From an uncultured virus (IMG/VR IMGVR_UViG_3300005336_000020) (taxonomy: Duplodnaviria; Heunggongvirae; Uroviricota; Caudoviricetes): a stretch of 20,000 bases of DNA. Below the pieces are notes generated by a model that searched no databases, had not been told where the DNA came from, and saw only the letters and a list, made by a program, of their open reading frames with translations. The stretch is from IMG/VR virus record IMGVR_UViG_3300005336_000020. One strand, given 5' to 3'. A program made the position numbers and the translations under genes. How positions within the stretch are numbered: the first letter of the stretch is position 1; each line of letters opens with the position of its first letter. Below are positions 717 through 6,769 of the stretch, piece after piece.

Positions 717-2408
717 TCACTGCATCCACGGCCACGGCGCGTTCTTGCCCTGCTCCAGGAGCTGGATCAGACCGAAGCTCGCATCCGACAGACCGCCGAA
801 GCAGTGCCGGTTCGTGCCGCCGGTCTCCAGGATGGAACCGGCGTAGCCCGCCATGTTCCACAGGTAGACCGGGACGCTCTTCGGGATCAGGTCGTCGATC
901 CGCGTCTCCGGCATGCCGTACGTGCGCCCGCCCATGTTCGACGGGAGCCAGCCCGGCCGCGACTGCTCGTCCGTGACGATCACGACGCGGTTGAACTCGC
1001 TCGTGAAGTTGTCCTTCACGGCACGCGGGATGTCGGTCCCGTTGATCGACGGGCCGAAGCTCTCGACGATCTTCAGGACGCTCGCCCCGCGCGGCACGTC
1101 GACCGGGCGCGAACCGGCGCCGCCACCCCGGCTGTTGTAACCGCTGTACGCCTGGTCGCCGCCGAACTCGACGAGCTTGGCGTCCTGCGCCTTCACGGCC
1201 AGCGCCGCACCGAAGAGCGCCGCCTGGTCGGCCAGCGTGATGTCGCTCTTGTTCGGCGTCGAACCCCACATGCCCGGGAACATCGACGGGCTGCGGTCCA
1301 CGAGGATCAGGGTCTTCCCCCGCAGGGTCGGAACCAGCTCCAGGGAGCCCGCCAGGCCCCGCTCCAGGGCGTTGCCCCAGCGCAGCGACGACAGGGCGCG
1401 GTAGGCCGACAGGAAGCGGTACGGGAAGAGCCGGGCCTTCCGCACCCGCTCGCCGTCCGAGAGCACCTTGGCCACGATGTCGGCCGAGGCGTCGGAGATA
1501 CCCTCCTCGTCGAAGTTGCGCAGGTTCTTGATCAGCGCACCCGGCGCCATGGTCGGGATCATCGCCTCCCACAGCAGCTTCTTCTCGACCTTGCCACCCA
1601 GCTCGGACAGGACGTCCTCCCAGGTGAGACCGGCATCCTTGAGCACCTGCGGCGCGATGAGACCCGAGCCGTAGATGTACTCCGCCGACGCCTTCTTCGG
1701 GACGCTGGCCGCCGCCTGCCGCCACTCGCGCTGGTTGCGCGTCATCGACAGGCTCGGCGTGATCGCGCCGCCGTGGCCGTGGCGCCGGTCGAGGATCAGC
1801 CGGAACAGGTCCGACTGCCACTGGGCGCTCGGCACCGGGTGGACGATGTCGATCACGTCGGCGAAGCGGTACGCCCGGCGGGCCGAGTCGTACTTGGCGT
1901 ACGAGTACTCCGTGTACAGACGCGTCACCGCGCGCTTCAGGCCGCGCTTGACCGCCTGGTAGCGCTTCGGCCACGCCTTGCCCGCGATCGAGAACCAGTA
2001 CGCGATGAACTCGCCCGGCTCGTCGGCCCGCTGGAGCACGCCGTCGACCATGTCCTCGACACCGTCGTAGCGGTGCTGGTCGCAGAGCGTCTTCGCCGCC
2101 TCGGCCGCCGCGAGCAGCGACGTGGTGCGCATGTAGCCGTCGGTGCGCAGCCACGGAAGCATGTGCGTGACGTGCCACTGCTCCAGCAGGGCGGTGGCGT
2201 GCAGGAGGTCGACGTAGCGCTCGTTGCGGTCGTGAGCGCGCTCGTAGAACGTGTCCTTGGTGACGAGGTTGGACACCGAGACCAGGTAGAGGTCCGACAG
2301 CGGGCTGCGGGTGAAGCCGCTTGCGCCCTCGAACGTCTTGGTCGTGCCCTCTGTCGTCACCTTCGAGGTGACGCGCGGCTTCGTCGTCGGCTTGTTGAAC
2401 GTTGCCAT
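717..2408 (-). CDS. rsr: Ro60/Rsr-family RNA-binding protein (TROVE domain + C-terminal vWA), 563 aa
   Basis: N-terminal TFEGASGF...FYE, RADEPGE, ALIKNLRNF, RLFPYRFLSAY; vWA MIDAS motifs LVDRSPSM, GTD, IVTDEQ; YLWNMAGY. True start is probably ATG 2408 (MATFNK) after a purine-rich RBS. The ORF-track start at 2573 lies inside an ncRNA. Confidence 0.92.
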   Translation of the reverse strand: MATFNKPTTKPRVTSKVTTEGTTKTFEGASGFTRSPLSDLYLVSVSNLVTKDTFYERAHDRNERYVDLLHATALLEQWHVTHMLPWLRTDGYMRTTSLLAAAEAAKTLCDQHRYDGVEDMVDGVLQRADEPGEFIAYWFSIAGKAWPKRYQAVKRGLKRAVTRLYTEYSYAKYDSARRAYRFADVIDIVHPVPSAQWQSDLFRLILDRRHGHGGAITPSLSMTRNQREWRQAAASVPKKASAEYIYGSGLIAPQVLKDAGLTWEDVLSELGGKVEKKLLWEAMIPTMAPGALIKNLRNFDEEGISDASADIVAKVLSDGERVRKARLFPYRFLSAYRALSSLRWGNALERGLAGSLELVPTLRGKTLILVDRSPSMFPGMWGSTPNKSDITLADQAALFGAALAVKAQDAKLVEFGGDQAYSGYNSRGGGAGSRPVDVPRGASVLKIVESFGPSINGTDIPRAVKDNFTSEFNRVVIVTDEQSRPGWLPSNMGGRTYGMPETRIDDLIPKSVPVYLWNMAGYAGSILETGGTNRHCFGGLSDASFGLIQLLEQGKNAPWPWMQ

Positions 2409-2429
2409 GACCCTTCTTCCCTTTCCCTG

Positions 2430-2468
2430 AAAATGCGAAAACCCCCTGTCCCGGGTGGGAGCAGGGGG
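2430..2468 (-). terminator. Intrinsic terminator between the Y RNA array and the Ro60 ORF
   Basis: Minus strand CCCCCTGCTCCC-ACCC-GGGACAGGGGG followed by TTTTCGCATTTT. Confidence 0.75.
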
Positions 2469-2482
2469 CGCATCTCGATGTA

Positions 2483-2660
2483 TGTGTGGGGTGCCCGGCC
2501 AACAGATAGGCCCCGGTGGTTCTTTCGAACCTTCCTCGACCAACGCTCTGCCAATTGAGCTATCCACGAGCACGCTCGCAGATCAGGACTCGAACCTGAA
2601 ACATTTGGTTCCACTGTGAAGTAACCGTTGCCAAGACGCTCCGGGCACCTCACCCACACA
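2483..2660 (-). ncRNA. yrlA: Y RNA, YrlA-like, with complete permuted tRNA-like domain (copy C)
   Basis: 5' and 3' ends pair (UGUGUGGG..GGUGCCCGG / CCGGGCACC..CCACACA). Internal order is T arm UCAGG-UUCGAGU-CCUGA (2583-2599), closed acceptor-like hairpin (2563-2582), then D arm UAGCUCAAUUGGCAGAGC (2545-2562). T-before-D order next to a Ro60 gene is the YrlA hallmark. Confidence 0.85.
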
Positions 2661-2665
2661 CCGAG

Positions 2666-2831
2666 TAACAGAAGATCCAGAGGAGTCACCGGCCAACAAT
2701 GCGAGCCCCGGTGTCTGCCAGTTATGCCATGCGTCGGCAGCGACGGGATTCGAACCCGCCCTCAGTTTCTTTTTCCAGAAGAAGTAACCGTTGCTCAAAA
2801 CGCTCCGGTAACCCTTCTGGATCTTCCGTTA
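2666..2831 (-). ncRNA. Y RNA-like element with T arm and degenerate D/acceptor region (copy B)
   Basis: Long terminal stem GAAGAUCCAGA/UCUGGAUCUUC. Same conserved core CCGGAGCG..ACGGUUACUUC..CACCGGG..UGUUGGCCGG as copy C. T arm GCGGG-UUCGAAU-CCCGU at 2743-2759. Confidence 0.75.
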
Positions 2832-2911
2832 TGCGCCCCGGCCAACAAGATGGCGCCCGGTGTGTTCTCCGCATGATGAAGTAACCGTTCGCACTAACGC
2901 TCCGGGGTGCA
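2832..2911 (-). ncRNA. Minimal Y RNA-like element lacking the tRNA-like domain (copy A)
   Basis: Terminal stem UGCACCCCGG/CCGGGGCGCA and the same conserved core motifs, with only about 15 nt between UUACUUC and CACCG. Begins at the predicted TSS. Confidence 0.7.
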
Positions 2912-2917
2912 GATAAA

Positions 2918-2947
2918 ACATTACGGGATCCTGCGAGGGGATCGCAA
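2918..2947 (-). promoter_or_regulatory. Sigma70/HrdB-type promoter for the Y RNA array
   Basis: -35 TTGCGA (2942-2947), 18-nt spacer, -10 TAATGT (2918-2923). Predicted start near 2911 coincides with the 5' end of copy A. Confidence 0.7.
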
Positions 2948-2952
2948 GTCTT

Positions 2953-3444
2953 TTAGTACTCCTGCGGGGCGAGGATCCACGAGGCCCGCTCCTGCGTGGG
3001 CTCCATCCACAGGGCCCGCAGCGCATGGTGCAGGTAGCCGTCGTCCGGGAAGTCCACCCCGGGGATGTGGAGGTTGGGGTTCCACTCGAAGTTCGGCGTG
3101 ATGCAGACCGGGGACCAGTCGTCGGCCCGGTACACCGAGCCCGTCAGCGCGAGGCCGTAGAACTGCGTGTTGGAGTGGCCGAACGTGATGATCTCCATCG
3201 AGCACCGCTCCTTCATCAGGGCCTCGGCGTTCTCGCGGGTGATCTCCTCCTCGGGCACCTCGTCGGCCAGCAGGACAGCTCGGCGCATGTGGTACTCGTA
3301 CCCCTCGCCATCCTCGTCGGCCTCCATGTCGGCCTCGGCTTCCGTGAGCCAGTCCGGCTCGAACTCGTCGGCGTTCTTGATGGCCCAGTCGCCGTCGCTC
3401 GGCACTCCCAGGCTGTACCCGTAGAACAGAACCGCCATCGACAT
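2953..3444 (-). CDS. Hypothetical acidic protein (163 aa)
   Basis: AGGAG RBS before ATG 3444, strong GC3 bias, D/E-rich sequence. Confidence 0.8.
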   Translation of the reverse strand: MSMAVLFYGYSLGVPSDGDWAIKNADEFEPDWLTEAEADMEADEDGEGYEYHMRRAVLLADEVPEEEITRENAEALMKERCSMEIITFGHSNTQFYGLALTGSVYRADDWSPVCITPNFEWNPNLHIPGVDFPDDGYLHHALRALWMEPTQERASWILAPQEY

Positions 3445-3467
3445 GTCGACTTATCTCCTGTACGACA

Positions 3468-3491
3468 GAGGGGGCCCGGCTGGGCCCCCTC
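3468..3491. terminator. Intergenic stem-loop
   Basis: 10-bp perfect stem GAGGGGGCCC/GGGCCCCCTC with a 4-nt loop and no clear U tract. Confidence 0.5.
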
Positions 3492-3504
3492 GGGAACGTG
3501 CTGG

Positions 3505-3693
3505 TCAGGCGCTGATGTCCTCGCCGTTCTGCGACTTCTGCTCGGCCTGGCGCGACTGCACGGCCATCTCGCTCACCGTGCCCCCGTACTGGCCGGAGAT
3601 CGTGCGGTACGCCTCGGCGGTGTGCCGCACATCGTCGGTGTCCAGGCTGGGGTGTGCCGCCTGGACGATCCTCTCGCTGGGTCGCTGTGCCAC
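3505..3693 (-). CDS. Small hypothetical protein (62 aa, MAQRPSERIV...)
   Basis: 3' part of ORF 3505..4008. GTG at 3693 follows an RBS (GAAGGGAG) immediately after the vWA stop. Confidence 0.65.
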   Translation of the reverse strand: MAQRPSERIVQAAHPSLDTDDVRHTAEAYRTISGQYGGTVSEMAVQSRQAEQKSQNGEDISA

Positions 3694-3707
3694 TTCGCGT
3701 TCTCCCT

Positions 3708-4454
3708 TCAGACGCGGACGATGCCCTGCTGGCGGGCCTGCGCCAGCCAGGTGGGGAACTCGGTCATGAGCCGGTTGTACAGGGTGCTGTCGGTCATCGT
3801 GGTGGGATCGGTGCCCACCGCGAAGAAGTCCGAGTTGTCGATCGGCCGGTACTGCGGGACCGGGATGTCGTCGAGGCGCTGGAGGAAGCCCAGGCCGTCC
3901 TCGTCGTCGTAGTCGTACGGGCGGTCCTCGCCGAAGCCCACGAACTGCCAGAAGATCGGCAGCGTGGCGTACTGGCAGATCCGCTGGGCGGCGGCCTTCT
4001 TGTCCCACGGCGATCCGTCGGTCTGGAAGATGACGTAGGCGGGGACGCTCTTGCCGCTGGACTGGTAGTGCCGCACCACGGCGTCCATGGCGACGGTGTA
4101 GTCCGTGCCGCCCATCTGACCGAGCTTGGCGTGCGCCTTGGCGATCTTGCCCTGGTGCTGCCCGAGCACCAGCTCGTCCATGCCCTTCAGGGTGTGGTCG
4201 AAGAACACGACCGGCACACGGCCGTCGTCCTCGAAGTGGGCCGCCATGCCCAGAATCCGCTCGGCGAAGTACTGGACGTGGCCGTGGCGGTAGTGACCGC
4301 GATGCGGGAAGTCCATCGAACCGGAACGGTCGAGCACCAGGTAGACGGCCGCCCGCTCGCCCTCCAGCCCGTGCTTGTTCGCCGCGAACCCGGCCTTCTG
4401 GTACGGCCTCTCCAGGTCGGGAGCGATGTCCCGGATTTTCTCTACGGTGATCAT
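3708..4454 (-). CDS. vWA domain protein, TerF-C-terminus-like (toxic cation/tellurium resistance-type)
   Basis: MIDAS motifs VYLVLDRSGSM, MGGTDY, VIFQTDG, plus LPIFWQFVGFG, FLQRLDD, R.IDN.DFF and LMTEFPTWL, typical of the vWA-TerF-like family. Confidence 0.85.
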   Translation of the reverse strand: MITVEKIRDIAPDLERPYQKAGFAANKHGLEGERAAVYLVLDRSGSMDFPHRGHYRHGHVQYFAERILGMAAHFEDDGRVPVVFFDHTLKGMDELVLGQHQGKIAKAHAKLGQMGGTDYTVAMDAVVRHYQSSGKSVPAYVIFQTDGSPWDKKAAAQRICQYATLPIFWQFVGFGEDRPYDYDDEDGLGFLQRLDDIPVPQYRPIDNSDFFAVGTDPTTMTDSTLYNRLMTEFPTWLAQARQQGIVRV

Positions 4455-4480
4455 TCTGTCTCTTCAGACCTTTCCGAGGG

Positions 4481-4669
4481 TCAGCGCTTCTTGACGGGTC
4501 GGGCCCACTGCTCCGGCGGAACGCCGCTCATCCTGGCCTGCGGGCGCTCGGGAACCTCCGTGCGCGCGAGCTGACTGGAGCCGTAGCTGCCGATGGAGTG
4601 GGCCTGCGTTGCACTGGGGCCCGAGTCCACCTGCTCCGATGCGGCATCCAGGGCGTCGGCGTCAGACAT
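4481..4669 (-). CDS. Small hypothetical protein (62 aa, MSDADALDAA...)
   Basis: ATG 4669 follows AGGAAGG; 3' part of ORF 4481..4792. Confidence 0.55.
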   Translation of the reverse strand: MSDADALDAASEQVDSGPSATQAHSIGSYGSSQLARTEVPERPQARMSGVPPEQWARPVKKR

Positions 4670-4799
4670 ATGCACCTTCCTGCCAGGCGAGCAGAACCTG
4701 CTGCTCGCGGTACTCGTCCAGTTCCTCTCGCGAGAGGAATGTGATTCCGTCCTCGCGGATGACGACCGGCGCCTCCGCCTTCTTCTCCTCACCGTTCAC
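4662..4799 (-). CDS. Possible 45-aa protein (MNGEEKKAEAPVVIREDGITFLSREELDEYREQQVLLAWQEGAYV)
   Basis: Plausible codon usage and an 8-nt ATGTCTGA overlap with the next gene. No RBS, as it starts 2 nt after a tRNA-like element. Confidence 0.4.
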   Translation of the reverse strand: MNGEEKKAEAPVVIREDGITFLSREELDEYREQQVLLAWQEGAYV

Positions 4800-4800
4800 G

Positions 4801-4919
4801 TGTGCACGACGGGATTCGAACCCGTGGGCTATCCAGAGATTCCCAGCTCCAGCCAGCCGCCTGCCTCCACCCCTGGGAGGGATTCAGCAAGCCCCTTTAG
4901 GCCGCTCAGGCACATGCAC
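4801..4919 (-). ncRNA. tRNA-like RNA (Ser/Leu-type D arm) with anticodon/variable region replaced by a long insert
   Basis: Acceptor GUGCAUG/CGUGCAC+A, D arm CCUGAGCGGCCUAAAGG, T arm ACGGG-UUCGAAU-CCCGU. About 68 nt lie between the D and T arms with no canonical anticodon arm in register. Total 119 nt. Confidence 0.7.
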
Positions 4920-5003
4920 CGCCGGACCCGTTAGTCCGGCCCAGGTTCCGCTTTCAGGAGTTCTACGCGGAACCGTCCGATTCATCTTCCACTCCAACCG
5001 GAG

Positions 5004-5088
5004 AGCCCATGACGGGATTTGAACCCGCGTCTCCATCCGCTGGCATGATCCAGTAGGACGATGTGCTTGGCCGCTACACCACATGGGC
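5004..5088 (-). ncRNA. tRNA-like RNA with a 19-nt anticodon loop (extended anticodon arm)
   Basis: Acceptor GCCCAUG/CAUGGGC, D arm GUGU-AGCGGCCAA-GCAC, anticodon stem UCGUC/GAUGG enclosing CUACUGGAUCAUGCCAGCG, variable AGAC, T arm GCGGG-UUCAAAU-CCCGU. Confidence 0.75.
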
Positions 5089-5242
5089 GCTCGGTGTCCT
5101 GCCGATCACCGAGCGGGCGGATTCCGTGGCGCCGGGTGCCACCCGGCGGTGCCTCCTCCACGAAACCCTCTTTGGCGTGCACCCCGCCGCCGACTTTCTC
5201 AGCCGAAAGCGGGGGTAAAGCGGACCTGTAATTCAGGTCCAG

Positions 5243-5316
5243 TTGGCAGGGAGAGATTTGAACTCTCGACCTCGGGATTATCAGTCCCGTGCTCTAACCA
5301 TCTGAGCTACCTGCCA
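5243..5316 (-). tRNA. tRNA-Ile (GAT)
   Basis: Perfect cloverleaf TGGCAGG TA GCTC AGATGGTTA GAGC A CGGGA CT GAT AA TCCCG AGGTC GAGAG TTCAAAT CTCTC CCTGCCA A. CCA is not encoded. Confidence 0.95.
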
Positions 5317-5427
5317 GTGATCCATCCGGAAGCGTGTCGGACCGCCTCCGGTGGATCGGTGCGCCGAGCCGGGCCGTAACCGGCTCGGAGCGTTTCGCCC
5401 GGGTGTCGGATTCCCGAACTAAGTGAA

Positions 5428-5457
5428 ACTCTACCGGGTGTTGCTGGCCTAGGTCAA
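5428..5457 (-). promoter_or_regulatory. Sigma70/HrdB-type promoter for the tRNA/ncRNA operon
   Basis: -35 TTGACC (5452-5457), 18-nt spacer, -10 TAGAGT (5428-5433). Confidence 0.75.
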
Positions 5458-5467
5458 CCGATCCGGG

Positions 5468-6769
5468 TCAGACCGCGAGCCGGAAGTTCTCCCCGTCCGC
5501 AACGATCAGGCCCTCGCGGGTGAACGACCGCAGGAAACGACTGGCCTGCGTCGCCCCGCAGCCCGTGTGGGTCGCCAGGAGAGCCGGGGTCCAGACGGCC
5601 TGCGGCTGGCTCCGCAGCACCCGCAGCGCGACATCCCGGGGGTACTTGCCACGGCCGTGGTCCGGGTGCGCCAGAAGGGCCACCATCTCGTCCGTGACGG
5701 TCCAGGTGCGCACGAGGTTGGGGCCGTGCACGTTGAGGTAGCCGTGCCCACGGAAGCGGGGGCCGCGCGGAAGGAAGTGCGGTTCCACTCCGGCGCCCGG
5801 ACCGAGCACGGTGTCGGTGTTCTGCGGGGTGTTGACGCGAAGGCAGAACGAGAAGTCGAAGTTCGTGCGGATGCCCGAGGTGATGCCCCGGTCGTCGCCC
5901 GAGCGGAGCGGGTTCTGGGTCATCCACATGATGATGATCTCGCGCGAGCGGCCCTGGCTGGACAGCTCGGTGAGCTTCTGCATCACGGACTTGTCGGGGC
6001 CTTCGAGGAAGGCGTACTCCTCGTCGCCCTTCGGCGCCTTGCCGCGCCGCTTGTCCTCGTCGATCACGGCCTGAAGGACGGAGTAGCCCTCGTCGATCGG
6101 AATGAGCCTGCGCGGGCCGAGCTTCAGATCCCACTTGGAGATCCCGAGCTTGGCCATCTGGGCGGCCCGGTCCTCCATTCGGGCGTGCTCGCGCTCGATC
6201 ATCTCGATGATCTCTTCATGGGTCACGGCGCAGGTGCAGATGCCGCGCCAGACCGTGGCCTCCTCACCCTTGCCGTCGATGAAGCCGCCCAGTTCCTCGT
6301 CGGGGTGGACGACCGCGCGGGCCATGAGGGCGCGCGTGGACCAGCTCTTCCCGGAGCCGGAGGCGCCGCCGACCAGCAGGCGTTCGTTGCGCGGGACGTC
6401 GACCTCTTCACCCGTGACCGTGTCGAGTCCGAGCGTGGTGATGTCGGGGTGCCAGAACATGTCCAGCTCGTCGGTGATGTACCGGGTACGAACCGCGAAC
6501 AGCACGCGGGAGGACCGGCCGCCGGGGGACAGGTCGCTCAGGTGCTCGTCGAGCACGTCGAGCATGGCGCGTATGGCCTGGTGCTTGACACGCAGCTCCT
6601 TGAGCATGTCGCGCCCGTCGAGCTTGAGCACGGCGACAACGCCGGACTCGGTCAGCTTCGCGGAGTCCAGGTTCACGCCGCGCAGGCCGCGCGCCTTCGC
6701 CTGCGGGTTCCAGTACTCAGGCGTGAGCAGGTCCAGCAGGCGCAGTTCCTCTTCAGTCGCTACCAGCAC
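5468..6769 (-). CDS. FtsK/SpoIIIE-family ATPase, similar to Streptomyces TraB conjugal DNA translocases
   Basis: Walker A LLVGGASGSGKS, IDGKG, Walker B LIPIDEG, arginine-finger QGRSREI..MTQNP, RTNF, GHGYL; C-terminal wHTH-like segment. Confidence 0.85.
   Translation of the reverse strand: MLVATEEELRLLDLLTPEYWNPQAKARGLRGVNLDSAKLTESGVVAVLKLDGRDMLKELRVKHQAIRAMLDVLDEHLSDLSPGGRSSRVLFAVRTRYITDELDMFWHPDITTLGLDTVTGEEVDVPRNERLLVGGASGSGKSWSTRALMARAVVHPDEELGGFIDGKGEEATVWRGICTCAVTHEEIIEMIEREHARMEDRAAQMAKLGISKWDLKLGPRRLIPIDEGYSVLQAVIDEDKRRGKAPKGDEEYAFLEGPDKSVMQKLTELSSQGRSREIIIMWMTQNPLRSGDDRGITSGIRTNFDFSFCLRVNTPQNTDTVLGPGAGVEPHFLPRGPRFRGHGYLNVHGPNLVRTWTVTDEMVALLAHPDHGRGKYPRDVALRVLRSQPQAVWTPALLATHTGCGATQASRFLRSFTREGLIVADGENFRLAV

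What the first reader, a model, noticed from the sequence alone, without database searches (positions are those of the whole stretch)
5004..5088. tRNA with intact body but a 12-nt insertion that extends the anticodon arm
Seen: acceptor, D and T arms are fully paired, yet the anticodon loop is 19 nt and folds a second helix CUGG/CCAG capped by AUCAUG (contains CAU). Intact stems argue against random decay. Inference: it could be a non-decoding tRNA mimic (decoy for anticodon nucleases, or a Ro60 ligand), a tRNA with a mini-intron needing an RtcB-type ligase, or a frameshifting tRNA.
Basis: partly seen in the sequence, partly recalled or inferred. Interest (0 to 1): 0.72.

Follow-up and report, generated by a model that had tools for sequence, protein, structure and literature searches.

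The report
Anticodon-less glutamate-tRNA mimic in phage
A Streptomyces phage carries a conserved small RNA gene shaped like a glutamate tRNA whose anticodon loop is replaced by a short hairpin, so it cannot read codons and probably serves as a tRNA look-alike within the phage's RNA-damage toolkit.

Summary
Window 5004-5088 (minus strand) is an 85-nt cloverleaf (Rfam tRNA 44.6 bits) with a 19-nt anticodon loop holding a CUGG/CCAG hairpin. The window is Streptomyces phage Frankenweenie; GenBank calls the gene 'tRNA-OTHER'.

It is not decay. Twelve distinct orthologues from related phages and soil contigs keep all four arms through compensatory changes (8 of 25 pairs). The body matches actinobacterial tRNA-Glu(CUC).

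A neighbouring 119-nt RNA does the same with a tRNA-Tyr body. Both lie behind one conserved promoter with a normal tRNA-Ile. About 2.6 kb downstream are three Y-RNA-like modules and a Ro60 gene.

Best reading: a non-decoding tRNA-Glu mimic (about 0.85). It most likely competes for a tRNA-binding factor such as a host tRNA nuclease (about 0.35, inferred). Ro60 ligand and RNA-processing punctuation remain open. The mini-intron and frameshifting readings are not supported.

The scan has noted other anticodon-less phage tRNA mimics on other DNA, but not this family. I found no paper describing it.

The parts
5004..5088 (-). tRNA-like RNA 'A' (the finding), GenBank gene 154 'tRNA-OTHER'. It has a tRNA-Glu(CUC)-type body and a 19-nt anticodon loop. 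RNA positions 1-85 map to window 5088-5004.
5038..5056 (-). Expanded anticodon loop (RNA positions 33-51). Layout: CUA, 4-bp helix CUGG/CCAG (5050-5053 with 5040-5043), variable hexaloop (5044-5049), CG.
   Evidence: In 9 hairpin-type orthologues 12 of 13 flank and stem positions are invariant, against 1 of 6 hexaloop positions and 3 of 10 anticodon-stem positions.
5089..5114 (-). Conserved 8-bp hairpin that ends directly at position +1 of A.
   Evidence: The stem sequence differs between lineages but stays paired (my reading of the sequences printed).
5243..5316 (-). Ordinary tRNA-Ile(GAU), the first gene of the RNA operon.
   Evidence: Rfam 75.3 bits; ARAGORN.
5428..5457 (-). Promoter-like site TTGACC-18-TAGAGT, followed by a conserved leader of about 105 nt.
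   Evidence: It is the only such site in 2300-5600. The same letters are present in 9 of the 10 relatives printed; the tenth contig (L018) ends before the site.
4801..4919 (-). tRNA-like RNA 'B', 119 nt. It has a tRNA-Tyr-type body, a 22-nt anticodon loop holding a covarying 4-bp hairpin, and a very long variable arm ending in a CUGGNAU-type loop.
2490..2907 (-). Three Y-RNA-like modules (about 2836-2907, 2689-2808 and 2490-2649). The last has a YrlA-type permuted tRNA-like domain. The annotated 'tRNA-Pro' at 2574-2664 is an artefact of that domain.
   Evidence: YrlA RF02553 hit at 2537-2607, 30.8 bits, E 5.5e-4, below gathering. Repeated end motifs read. YrlA-like hits occur near Ro60 in 6 of 6 other phage loci searched.
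717..2408 (-). Ro60-like (TROVE) RNA-binding protein, gene 147.
   Evidence: Pfam TROVE E 1.2e-13; PHROG 850 RNA-binding protein; annotation.

Best explanation
SHOWN: gene 154 of phage Frankenweenie encodes a conserved RNA with the complete body of an actinobacterial tRNA-Glu(CUC). That body includes the acceptor, D and T arms, the anticodon stem, the 4-nt variable region and the tertiary-contact bases. The place of the anticodon loop is free of any decoding constraint. In this phage it is a 19-nt loop with an invariant CUGG/CCAG hairpin. In relatives it is a 3-, 8- or odd 7-nt loop.

The gene sits in one promoter-driven unit: tRNA-Ile, then A, then a second anticodon-disrupted mimic (B, tRNA-Tyr body), then small ORFs. 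This unit lies upstream of three Y-RNA-like modules and Ro60.

INFERRED: the transcript is cut out by the host tRNA-processing enzymes and given CCA by the host. It folds into an L-shape about 5 bp longer in the anticodon limb. It then occupies a protein that recognises the tRNA-Glu body without being usable in translation. The most likely target is a host tRNA-cleaving or tRNA-modifying defence enzyme, which the mimic would titrate as an uncleavable competitor. B would do the same for tRNA-Tyr.

Probabilities: non-decoding functional tRNA mimic about 0.85; decoy or competitor mechanism about 0.35.
For: Structure and selection:
- Rfam tRNA scores 44.6 bits.
- 99.5% of pair cells are paired, 8 of 25 pairs change on both sides, and 0 of 500 shuffles reach either value.
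- Two more distant orthologues (L023, L024) keep all four stems with further compensations (my reading).

No decoding:
- Loop lengths are 19, 18, 3, 8 and 7 nt.
- Programs and annotators give seven different identities for orthologues: undetermined, Pyl(cta), Val(cac), His(gtg), 'gagg', Arg(tcg), or not called.
- The discriminator base varies among U, A and C.

Isotype:
- Among tRNAs not picked by my own pattern, the best match to model R1 is a phage tRNA-Glu at 57.3 bits.

Sister element:
- B has 14 of 35 pairs with changes on both sides, including 2 of 4 pairs in its anticodon-loop hairpin.
- B's D-arm pattern hits only tRNA-Tyr(GUA), 2 hits in 5 genomes.

Context:
- The canonical tRNA sets of Frankenweenie, Quantum and JustBecause lack Glu and Tyr, 3 of 3.
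- The promoter is conserved.
- Ro60 and YrlA-like RNAs lie downstream. The linkage is kept in a relative whose Ro60 is only 37% identical.

Published ideas, passages read:
- The anticodon-less tRNA-like domain of YrlA has been proposed to act as a competitive inhibitor of an anticodon nuclease (PMC7790460).
- The actinobacterial toxin VapC52 cleaves tRNA-Glu(CTC), tRNA-Ser(GGA) and phage D29 tRNAs including Glu(CTC) and Tyr(GTA), and contributes to phage defence (PMC13273310).
Against: - No expression, processing, CCA-addition or binding data exist.
- The only RNA-library run holds two short contigs of the operon, which may be DNA carry-over.
- No tRNA-Glu- or tRNA-Tyr-specific nuclease is known for the Streptomyces hosts, and I did not search for one.
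- The hairpin abutting +1 (5089-5114) is unusual for an RNase P substrate, so the mature 5' end is uncertain.
- A plain 'uncleavable loop' does not explain why 12 of 13 hairpin stem and flank bases are invariant. That pattern points to a specific ligand or contact.
- The family is confined to one phage lineage, so its linkage to Ro60 is a single inherited arrangement, not repeated association.
- Five other Ro60-encoding actinophages have only ordinary tRNAs around Ro60.
Confidence: 0.45

Rival explanations
1. Ro60 ligand. A (and B) would be an unpermuted kind of Y RNA that binds the phage Ro60, or brings a tRNA-binding enzyme to it. The invariant extended anticodon limb would be the contact.
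For: Same strand and 2.6 kb upstream of Ro60. The linkage is kept in the distant relative L024. Known Y RNAs carry anticodon-less tRNA-like domains, and M. smegmatis YrlA is cut by RNase P and receives CCA (PMC4201824, passages). The invariant hairpin suggests a specific partner.
Against: The phage already has three Y-RNA-like modules directly upstream of Ro60. A gives no YrlA match at E up to 5. A holds no GNCGAAN0-1G motif on its strand. The Quantum group and L023/L024 lack the hairpin yet keep Ro60 nearby. Other Ro60 phages have no A-like RNA.
Confidence: 0.2
2. Processing punctuation. A and B would be kept only as RNase P / RNase Z cleavage signals and stabilisers. They would cut the polycistronic transcript and create the 5' end of the downstream mRNA. 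The anticodon limb would not matter.
For: There is one conserved promoter and no other promoter-like site before the ORFs. The annotated GTG start of gene 153 lies 1 nt after B's discriminator. The anticodon loops are free to vary.
Against: The processing enzymes need only the acceptor and T domains. Yet the D arm, the anticodon stem (3 of 5 pairs with changes on both sides) and isotype-specific tRNA-Glu and tRNA-Tyr features are maintained. The hairpin stem and flanks are near-invariant. L024 has A but no B, and the same small ORF follows after about 100 nt with its own GGAAGGGAG stretch.
Confidence: 0.2
3. Intron-containing tRNA. The 12 extra bases would be cut out and the halves ligated to give a working tRNA.
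For: The insert lies in the anticodon loop, where tRNA introns lie. A 3-nt unpaired stretch next to a 4-bp helix is loosely like half of a bulge-helix-bulge motif. JustBecause and Kela encode an RNA ligase (PF09414) beside Ro60.
Against: Every 12-nt excision I tried by eye leaves an abnormal loop, for example ACU or ACG followed by C37, or no U33. None can give the CUC anticodon of the parent isotype. Orthologues without the hairpin have 3-, 8- or A33/C37 7-nt loops, not a normal one. Frankenweenie and Quantum have no PF09414 ligase and no RtcB, 0 of 2. No joined form was seen in the contigs laid (weak). The 4-bp helix is too short for RNase III (established knowledge).
Confidence: 0.04
4. Decoding tRNA with an expanded loop (frameshifter or suppressor), or a decaying tRNA pseudogene.
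For: ARAGORN reads the JustBecause copy as anticodon CUA. The gene is annotated as a tRNA.
Against: That alternative fold is not kept in Frankenweenie. CUA is CCA in the L017 and L022 lineage. The 3-nt loop of Quantum cannot decode. Decay is excluded by the compensatory changes in four helices.
Confidence: 0.04

Closest known systems
YrlA / bacterial Y RNAs (Rfam RF02553; Chen et al. 2014, PMC4201824)
   Same: A non-coding RNA that mimics the tRNA body (T arm, D arm, acceptor stem), has no anticodon, is encoded within a few kb of Ro60 on the same strand, and is found in actinophages.
   Different: YrlA is circularly permuted: its acceptor stem is capped and its ends lie in the Ro60-binding stem. 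A has normal tRNA topology with an open acceptor end and a closed anticodon limb. A gives no RF02553 match. A keeps a recognisable isotype (tRNA-Glu). True YrlA-like modules are present separately in the same locus.
Phage tRNAs that escape host anticodon nucleases through anticodon-loop changes (van den Berg et al. 2023, PMC10264068; seen as search listing and abstract, plus a term search that found none of my terms)
   Same: A phage-encoded tRNA-shaped RNA altered exactly where host tRNA nucleases act.
   Different: Those tRNAs still decode. Here the loop is replaced, so the RNA could only compete, not substitute.
Intron-containing pre-tRNAs of archaea and eukaryotes (bulge-helix-bulge substrates; recalled knowledge)
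   Same: An extra hairpin that lengthens the anticodon limb of an otherwise normal cloverleaf.
   Different: There are no two 3-nt bulges 4 bp apart, no sensible spliced product and no splicing enzymes in the phage. The host is a bacterium.
Other tRNA-framed phage RNAs noted by this scan on other DNA (e1-6107528, e1-5785234, e1-5785624)
   Same: Phage genes that keep a tRNA frame but no usable anticodon arm, conserved through compensatory changes.
   Different: They are different families with different architecture (permuted, or with D-loop inserts). None is reported with tRNA-Glu or tRNA-Tyr bodies in one operon beside Ro60. I did not re-examine them.

Membership tests
Canonical decoding tRNA | Cloverleaf with conserved tertiary bases (U8, A14, GG in the D loop, UUCRANU T loop) | tested here: met
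   these are invariant columns in alignment A2
Canonical decoding tRNA | 7-nt anticodon loop with U33 and a purine at 37 | tested here: not met
   Loop lengths are 19 nt here and 18, 3 and 8 nt in relatives. The only 7-nt version (L024) has A33 and C37.
Canonical decoding tRNA | The same anticodon in orthologues | tested here: not met
   Seven different calls for orthologues
tRNA-Glu (by descent of the body) | D arm and T arm sequence of actinobacterial tRNA-Glu(CUC), with a 4-nt variable region | tested here: met
tRNA-Glu (as a working tRNA) | Anticodon YUC, and charging by GluRS | tested here: not met
   No YUC anticodon can be formed (sequence). Charging is not testable here.
Intron-containing tRNA (protein-spliced) | Bulge-helix-bulge or bulge-helix-loop motif at the exon-intron borders | tested here: not met
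   A 3x2 internal loop, a 4-bp helix and a hexaloop. Only the 3-nt 5' side resembles a bulge.
Intron-containing tRNA (protein-spliced) | Excision restores a normal loop, and intron-less orthologues have a normal loop | tested here: not met
   My enumeration on the sequence,
Intron-containing tRNA (protein-spliced) | Splicing endonuclease and RNA ligase available | tested here: inconclusive
   PF09414 ligase in 1 of 3 phages (not Frankenweenie) and RtcB in 0 of 3. Host enzymes and endonuclease families were not searched.
YrlA Y RNA (RF02553) | Match to the covariance model; permuted order T arm, capped acceptor stem, D arm | tested here: not met
   No RF02553 hit on A at E up to 5. A has the normal tRNA order.
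YrlA Y RNA (RF02553) | GNCGAAN0-1G motif near the 5' end | tested here: not met
   No minus-strand match in 4801-5457. The phage's own YrlA-like modules lack the exact motif too, so this test is weak.
YrlA Y RNA (RF02553) | Encoded within 4 kb of Ro60 on the same strand | tested here: met
   A's 3' end at 5004 lies about 2.6 kb upstream of the Ro60 start at 2408, both on the minus strand
YrlA Y RNA (RF02553) | Bound by Ro60 | not testable with these tools
   Needs immunoprecipitation

The most novel reading that the evidence does not exclude
The phage makes isotype-specific tRNA 'sponges'. These are full-bodied but anticodon-ablated copies of host tRNA-Glu and tRNA-Tyr, in normal tRNA topology, expressed from a strong promoter. 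They would soak up host anti-phage enzymes that attack those tRNAs through their bodies or acceptor ends, without disturbing decoding. The loop replacements would change quickly between phage lineages as part of an arms race. This would be a natural RNA-decoy counter-defence, working together with the phage Ro60 / Y-RNA module.
Probability: 0.3. Interest if true: 0.8.

Novelty: new variant of a known kind. Interest (0 to 1): 0.6.

Why it matters
Phage tRNA genes are now seen as counter-measures to host tRNA-cleaving defences. Separately, the anticodon-less tRNA-like domain of Y RNAs has been proposed, without test, to inhibit such nucleases.

This locus offers a clean case for testing that idea. 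It holds two mimics whose parent isotypes can be named (Glu and Tyr), in normal tRNA topology. They sit beside Ro60 and Y RNAs in cultured phages of laboratory Streptomyces hosts. If they are decoys, they define a new RNA-based anti-defence strategy and point to undiscovered tRNA-Glu- and tRNA-Tyr-directed defences in actinobacteria. If they bind Ro60, they extend the Y RNA concept to unpermuted tRNA shapes.

There is also a practical point. Genome annotation currently labels these genes inconsistently: tRNA-OTHER, tRNA-His, tRNA-Ser, tRNA-Pro, or nothing.

Tried and rejected
- Intron reading. I enumerated all 12-nt excisions on the sequence, and none gives a normal loop. The ligase and RtcB searches found nothing in Frankenweenie.
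- CCA-adding enzyme (PF01743): 0 of 3 phages. CCA would therefore have to come from the host. The ordinary tRNA-Ile here also lacks an encoded CCA.
- RNA evidence. One RNA-library run (X18) gave contigs over 4850-5034 and 5111-5352. There were no joints, and no contig over 5035-5110. Contigs cannot show transcription, ends or absence, so I draw nothing from this. X19 and X20 mostly matched other organisms' tRNA-Ile.
- The first crude pairwise scoring of the body pointed to Gly and Asp. It is superseded by the covariance model and the genome scan.
- The first genome scan used a pattern that fixed the variable region and found nothing.
- MAFFT misaligned the D arms of L023 and L024. I left them out of the pair counts and read their stems by eye.
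- ARAGORN's amber-suppressor fold for JustBecause is not conserved.
- GNCGAAN0-1G motif searches: no hit in the operon strand.
- Pfam and PHROG searches on the small ORFs between B and Ro60 found no family, except vWA-TerF-like for gene 151.
There are no earlier notes on this genome.
- Literature searches found no description of this RNA. The Frankenweenie announcement only counts '15 tRNAs' (PMC10652959, passages). The Satis/JustBecause announcement (PMC6687918) was seen as a listing only, because my term search failed. Burroughs and Aravind 2016 on RNA repair systems is not in the library.

Full report
**What the window is.** The 551 bases around the finding are 100% identical to Streptomyces phage Frankenweenie (OQ921725.1, 200,048 bp; host S. 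scabiei RL-34). Genes run on the window's minus strand. GenBank annotates the finding as gene 154, 'tRNA-OTHER, tRNA-Undet(ac)'. The published announcement places the phage in cluster BM and only counts '15 tRNAs' (PMC10652959, passages read).

**The observation.** Read on the minus strand (5088 to 5004), the 85 nt form a 7-bp acceptor stem, a 4-bp D stem with a 9-nt loop, a 5-bp anticodon stem, a 4-nt variable region and a 5-bp T stem with a UUCAAAU loop. The anticodon loop has 19 nt: CUA, a 4-bp helix CUGG/CCAG capped by AUCAUG, then CG. ARAGORN reports 'tRNA-???'. Rfam's tRNA model gives 44.6 bits (gathering 29; E 9.4e-07) with the extra bases as an insertion in the loop.

**Relatives.**
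- Seven phage records cover the region: Frankenweenie, JustBecause, Kela, Quantum, Satis, Kradal and EhyElimayoE. I inspected Frankenweenie, JustBecause, Kela and Quantum.
- Pattern scans added two IMG/VR contigs.
- A metagenome scan added four more contigs with the insert. The other three of its seven hits are ordinary tRNAs, which I read as two Asn(GUU) and one His(GUG).
- A search with the neighbouring FtsK-like protein added five syntenic IMG/VR loci, two of them more distant (77% and 65% protein identity).
- A first scan of 185,579 bacterial and archaeal genomes, with a pattern that fixed the variable region, found nothing.

**Selection on the body.** In nine distinct sequences, 99.5% of 221 pair cells are standard pairs and 8 of 25 pairs change on both sides: 2 in the acceptor stem, 2 in the D stem, 3 in the anticodon stem and 1 in the T stem. 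No shuffle out of 500 reaches these values, and sliding the partners by 1-3 columns drops pairing to 39-51%. L023 and L024 add further compensated changes (my reading). MAFFT misaligned their D arms, so they are not in the counts. This excludes a decaying pseudogene.

**No selection for decoding.** The anticodon loop takes several forms:
- 19 nt with the hairpin in Frankenweenie, JustBecause, Kela and six environmental sequences.
- 18 nt in L022.
- A GUG triloop in Quantum, where the gene is annotated tRNA-His(gtg).
- 8 nt (GUGAGGGU) in L023.
- 7 nt (UAUCGCA, with A33 and C37) in L024.

Programs and annotators name the orthologues undetermined, Pyl(cta), Val(cac), His(gtg), a 4-base 'gagg', Arg(tcg), or nothing. 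The discriminator base is U, A or C.

Within the hairpin type, the cap varies: AUCAUG, GUCAAG, GUCGAG, UUAAUU, UAAUU, GUAAAG. The 'CAU' is therefore coincidental. In contrast, 12 of the 13 stem and flank bases are invariant. That compares with 3 of 10 in the adjacent anticodon stem, 1 of 6 in the cap and 46 of 72 elsewhere (one-sided Fisher P 0.037). The hairpin is thus under sequence-specific constraint that I cannot explain.

**What the body is.** A covariance model of the family (R1) scores the orthologues at 75-111 bits. Among tRNAs that my own pattern had not pre-selected, the best match is a phage tRNA-Glu(UUC) at 57.3 bits. A scan of bacterial genomes with A's D arm and T arm, leaving the anticodon arm and variable region free, returned 120 actinobacterial loci (capped). 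All 125 matches are tRNA-Glu(CUC) with a normal CUCUCAA or CUCUCAC loop. The pattern comes from A, so this only shows which isotype shares these arms, but the answer is unanimous. In one environmental copy (L018), positions 8-26 are identical to such a host-type tRNA-Glu.

**Context.** A single conserved promoter-like site (TTGACC-18-TAGAGT, 5457-5428) is the only one in 3.3 kb. It is letter-identical in 9 of the 10 relatives printed; the tenth contig (L018) ends before it. It precedes, in order:
- a conserved leader of about 105 nt;
- a normal tRNA-Ile(GAU);
- a structured spacer ending in a hairpin that abuts A's +1;
- A;
- an 84-nt conserved spacer;
- a second odd element, B (4801-4919).

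B is a 119-nt cloverleaf whose 22-nt anticodon loop holds a 4-bp hairpin and whose variable arm is very long. In B, 95.4% of 280 cells pair and 14 of 35 pairs change on both sides, including 2 of 4 in the loop hairpin. Its D-arm pattern hits only tRNA-Tyr(GUA) in actinobacterial genomes (2 hits in 5 genomes), and its loop start aligns with the tRNA-Tyr loop.

The phage lineage therefore carries anticodon-disrupted copies of two named isotypes. The ordinary tRNA sets of Frankenweenie, Quantum and JustBecause lack exactly Glu and Tyr, 3 of 3.

Downstream lie small ORFs. In Frankenweenie one of them is a vWA-TerF-like protein. In JustBecause and Kela a PF09414 RNA ligase occupies the equivalent locus. 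Next come three Y-RNA-like modules, one with a sub-threshold YrlA match (30.8 bits, E 5.5e-4), a terminator-like hairpin, and Ro60 (TROVE). YrlA-like sub-threshold hits lie near Ro60 in 6 of 6 other actinophage loci searched. In five other Ro60 phages the gene sits among ordinary tRNAs, with nothing like A. L024, whose Ro60 is only 37% identical, still has its A-type gene about 1.1 kb upstream of Ro60.

**Mechanism.**
- Shown: a conserved, non-decoding tRNA-Glu-shaped RNA gene in a promoter-driven RNA operon beside a Ro60 / Y-RNA module.
- Inferred: it is processed like a tRNA. The host must add CCA, since the three phages searched have no CCA-adding enzyme and no CCA is encoded. It then competes for something that recognises the tRNA-Glu body.

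I favour a decoy for a host tRNA-directed defence enzyme (about 0.35), for four reasons:
- the isotype-specific bodies are retained;
- the only part that changes freely is the part such enzymes cut;
- a non-decoding competitor would not disturb translation;
- the idea has been put forward for the anticodon-less domain of YrlA (PMC7790460, passages).

In addition, actinobacterial VapC52 cleaves tRNA-Glu(CTC) and phage tRNAs and aids phage defence (PMC13273310, passages).

Two rivals stand at about 0.2 each. One is a Ro60 ligand, which would explain the invariant hairpin but not its absence in Quantum, L023 and L024. The other is pure processing punctuation, noting that gene 153's GTG lies 1 nt after B. 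Splicing, frameshifting and decay are each unlikely (0.04 or less).

**Novelty.** Anticodon-less tRNA mimics linked to Ro60 are known (YrlA). The scan has also noted other phage tRNA-framed RNAs on other DNA. This family differs in four ways: normal tRNA topology, nameable parent isotypes, a pair of them in one operon, and hypervariable loop replacements. Seven literature searches found no description of it. I class it as a new variant of a known kind.

Noticed in passing
window 4801-4919 (-): A second tRNA-like RNA (B), unannotated in Frankenweenie. A sub-part is annotated 'tRNA-Ser' in JustBecause, and it lies under a CDS in Kela. It has a tRNA-Tyr-type body, a covarying hairpin inside a 22-nt anticodon loop and a roughly 32-nt variable arm. 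The arm's end loop always contains CUGG, and the anticodon hairpin loop always contains CCAG, so a loop-loop contact is possible.
   Followed up: partly
window 2490-2907 (-): Three tandem Y-RNA-like modules. They share the end motifs CCGGAGCGU...AACGGUUACUUC and CCGGG...UUGUUGGCCGG. The third has a YrlA-type tRNA-like domain. The annotated 91-nt 'tRNA-Pro(tgg)' (2574-2664) is an artefact of that permuted domain.
   Followed up: partly
window 5317-5420 (-): The conserved leader RNA between the promoter and tRNA-Ile holds two copies of a conserved UCCGAC word. One reads GGUCCGA (5337-5343), the heptamer that Chen et al. 2014 cite as contacted by frog Ro60. It also has a hairpin with an invariant GGUUACGGCCC. 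It could be a further Ro60-binding RNA.
   Followed up: no
window 5089-5114 and 4921-4946 (-): Both A and B are preceded, with 0-1 nt spacing, by hairpins whose stems differ between lineages but stay paired. This is unusual for RNase P substrates.
   Followed up: no
window 4920-5003 (-): The A-B spacer has an 8-bp helix (GGUUCCGC/GCGGAACC) with compensated changes in Quantum and L018. A GGAGU/ACUCC pairing with its loop is also possible, which would make a pseudoknot.
   Followed up: no
window 4797-4801 (-): The annotated GTG start of gene 153 lies 1 nt after B's discriminator base. 3' processing of B would therefore leave an almost leaderless mRNA.
   Followed up: no
window 3708-4454 (-); L003 5166-5918: Between B and Ro60, Frankenweenie carries a vWA-TerF-like protein (PF10138, E 3e-54). 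JustBecause and Kela carry a PF09414 RNA ligase in the same stretch instead. Frankenweenie and Quantum have no such ligase anywhere.
   Followed up: partly
L007 7006-7238 (phage Alone3): A near-threshold manA RNA match (47.8 bits, gathering 55.2) between two tRNA-Lys genes, just downstream of that phage's Ro60.
   Followed up: no
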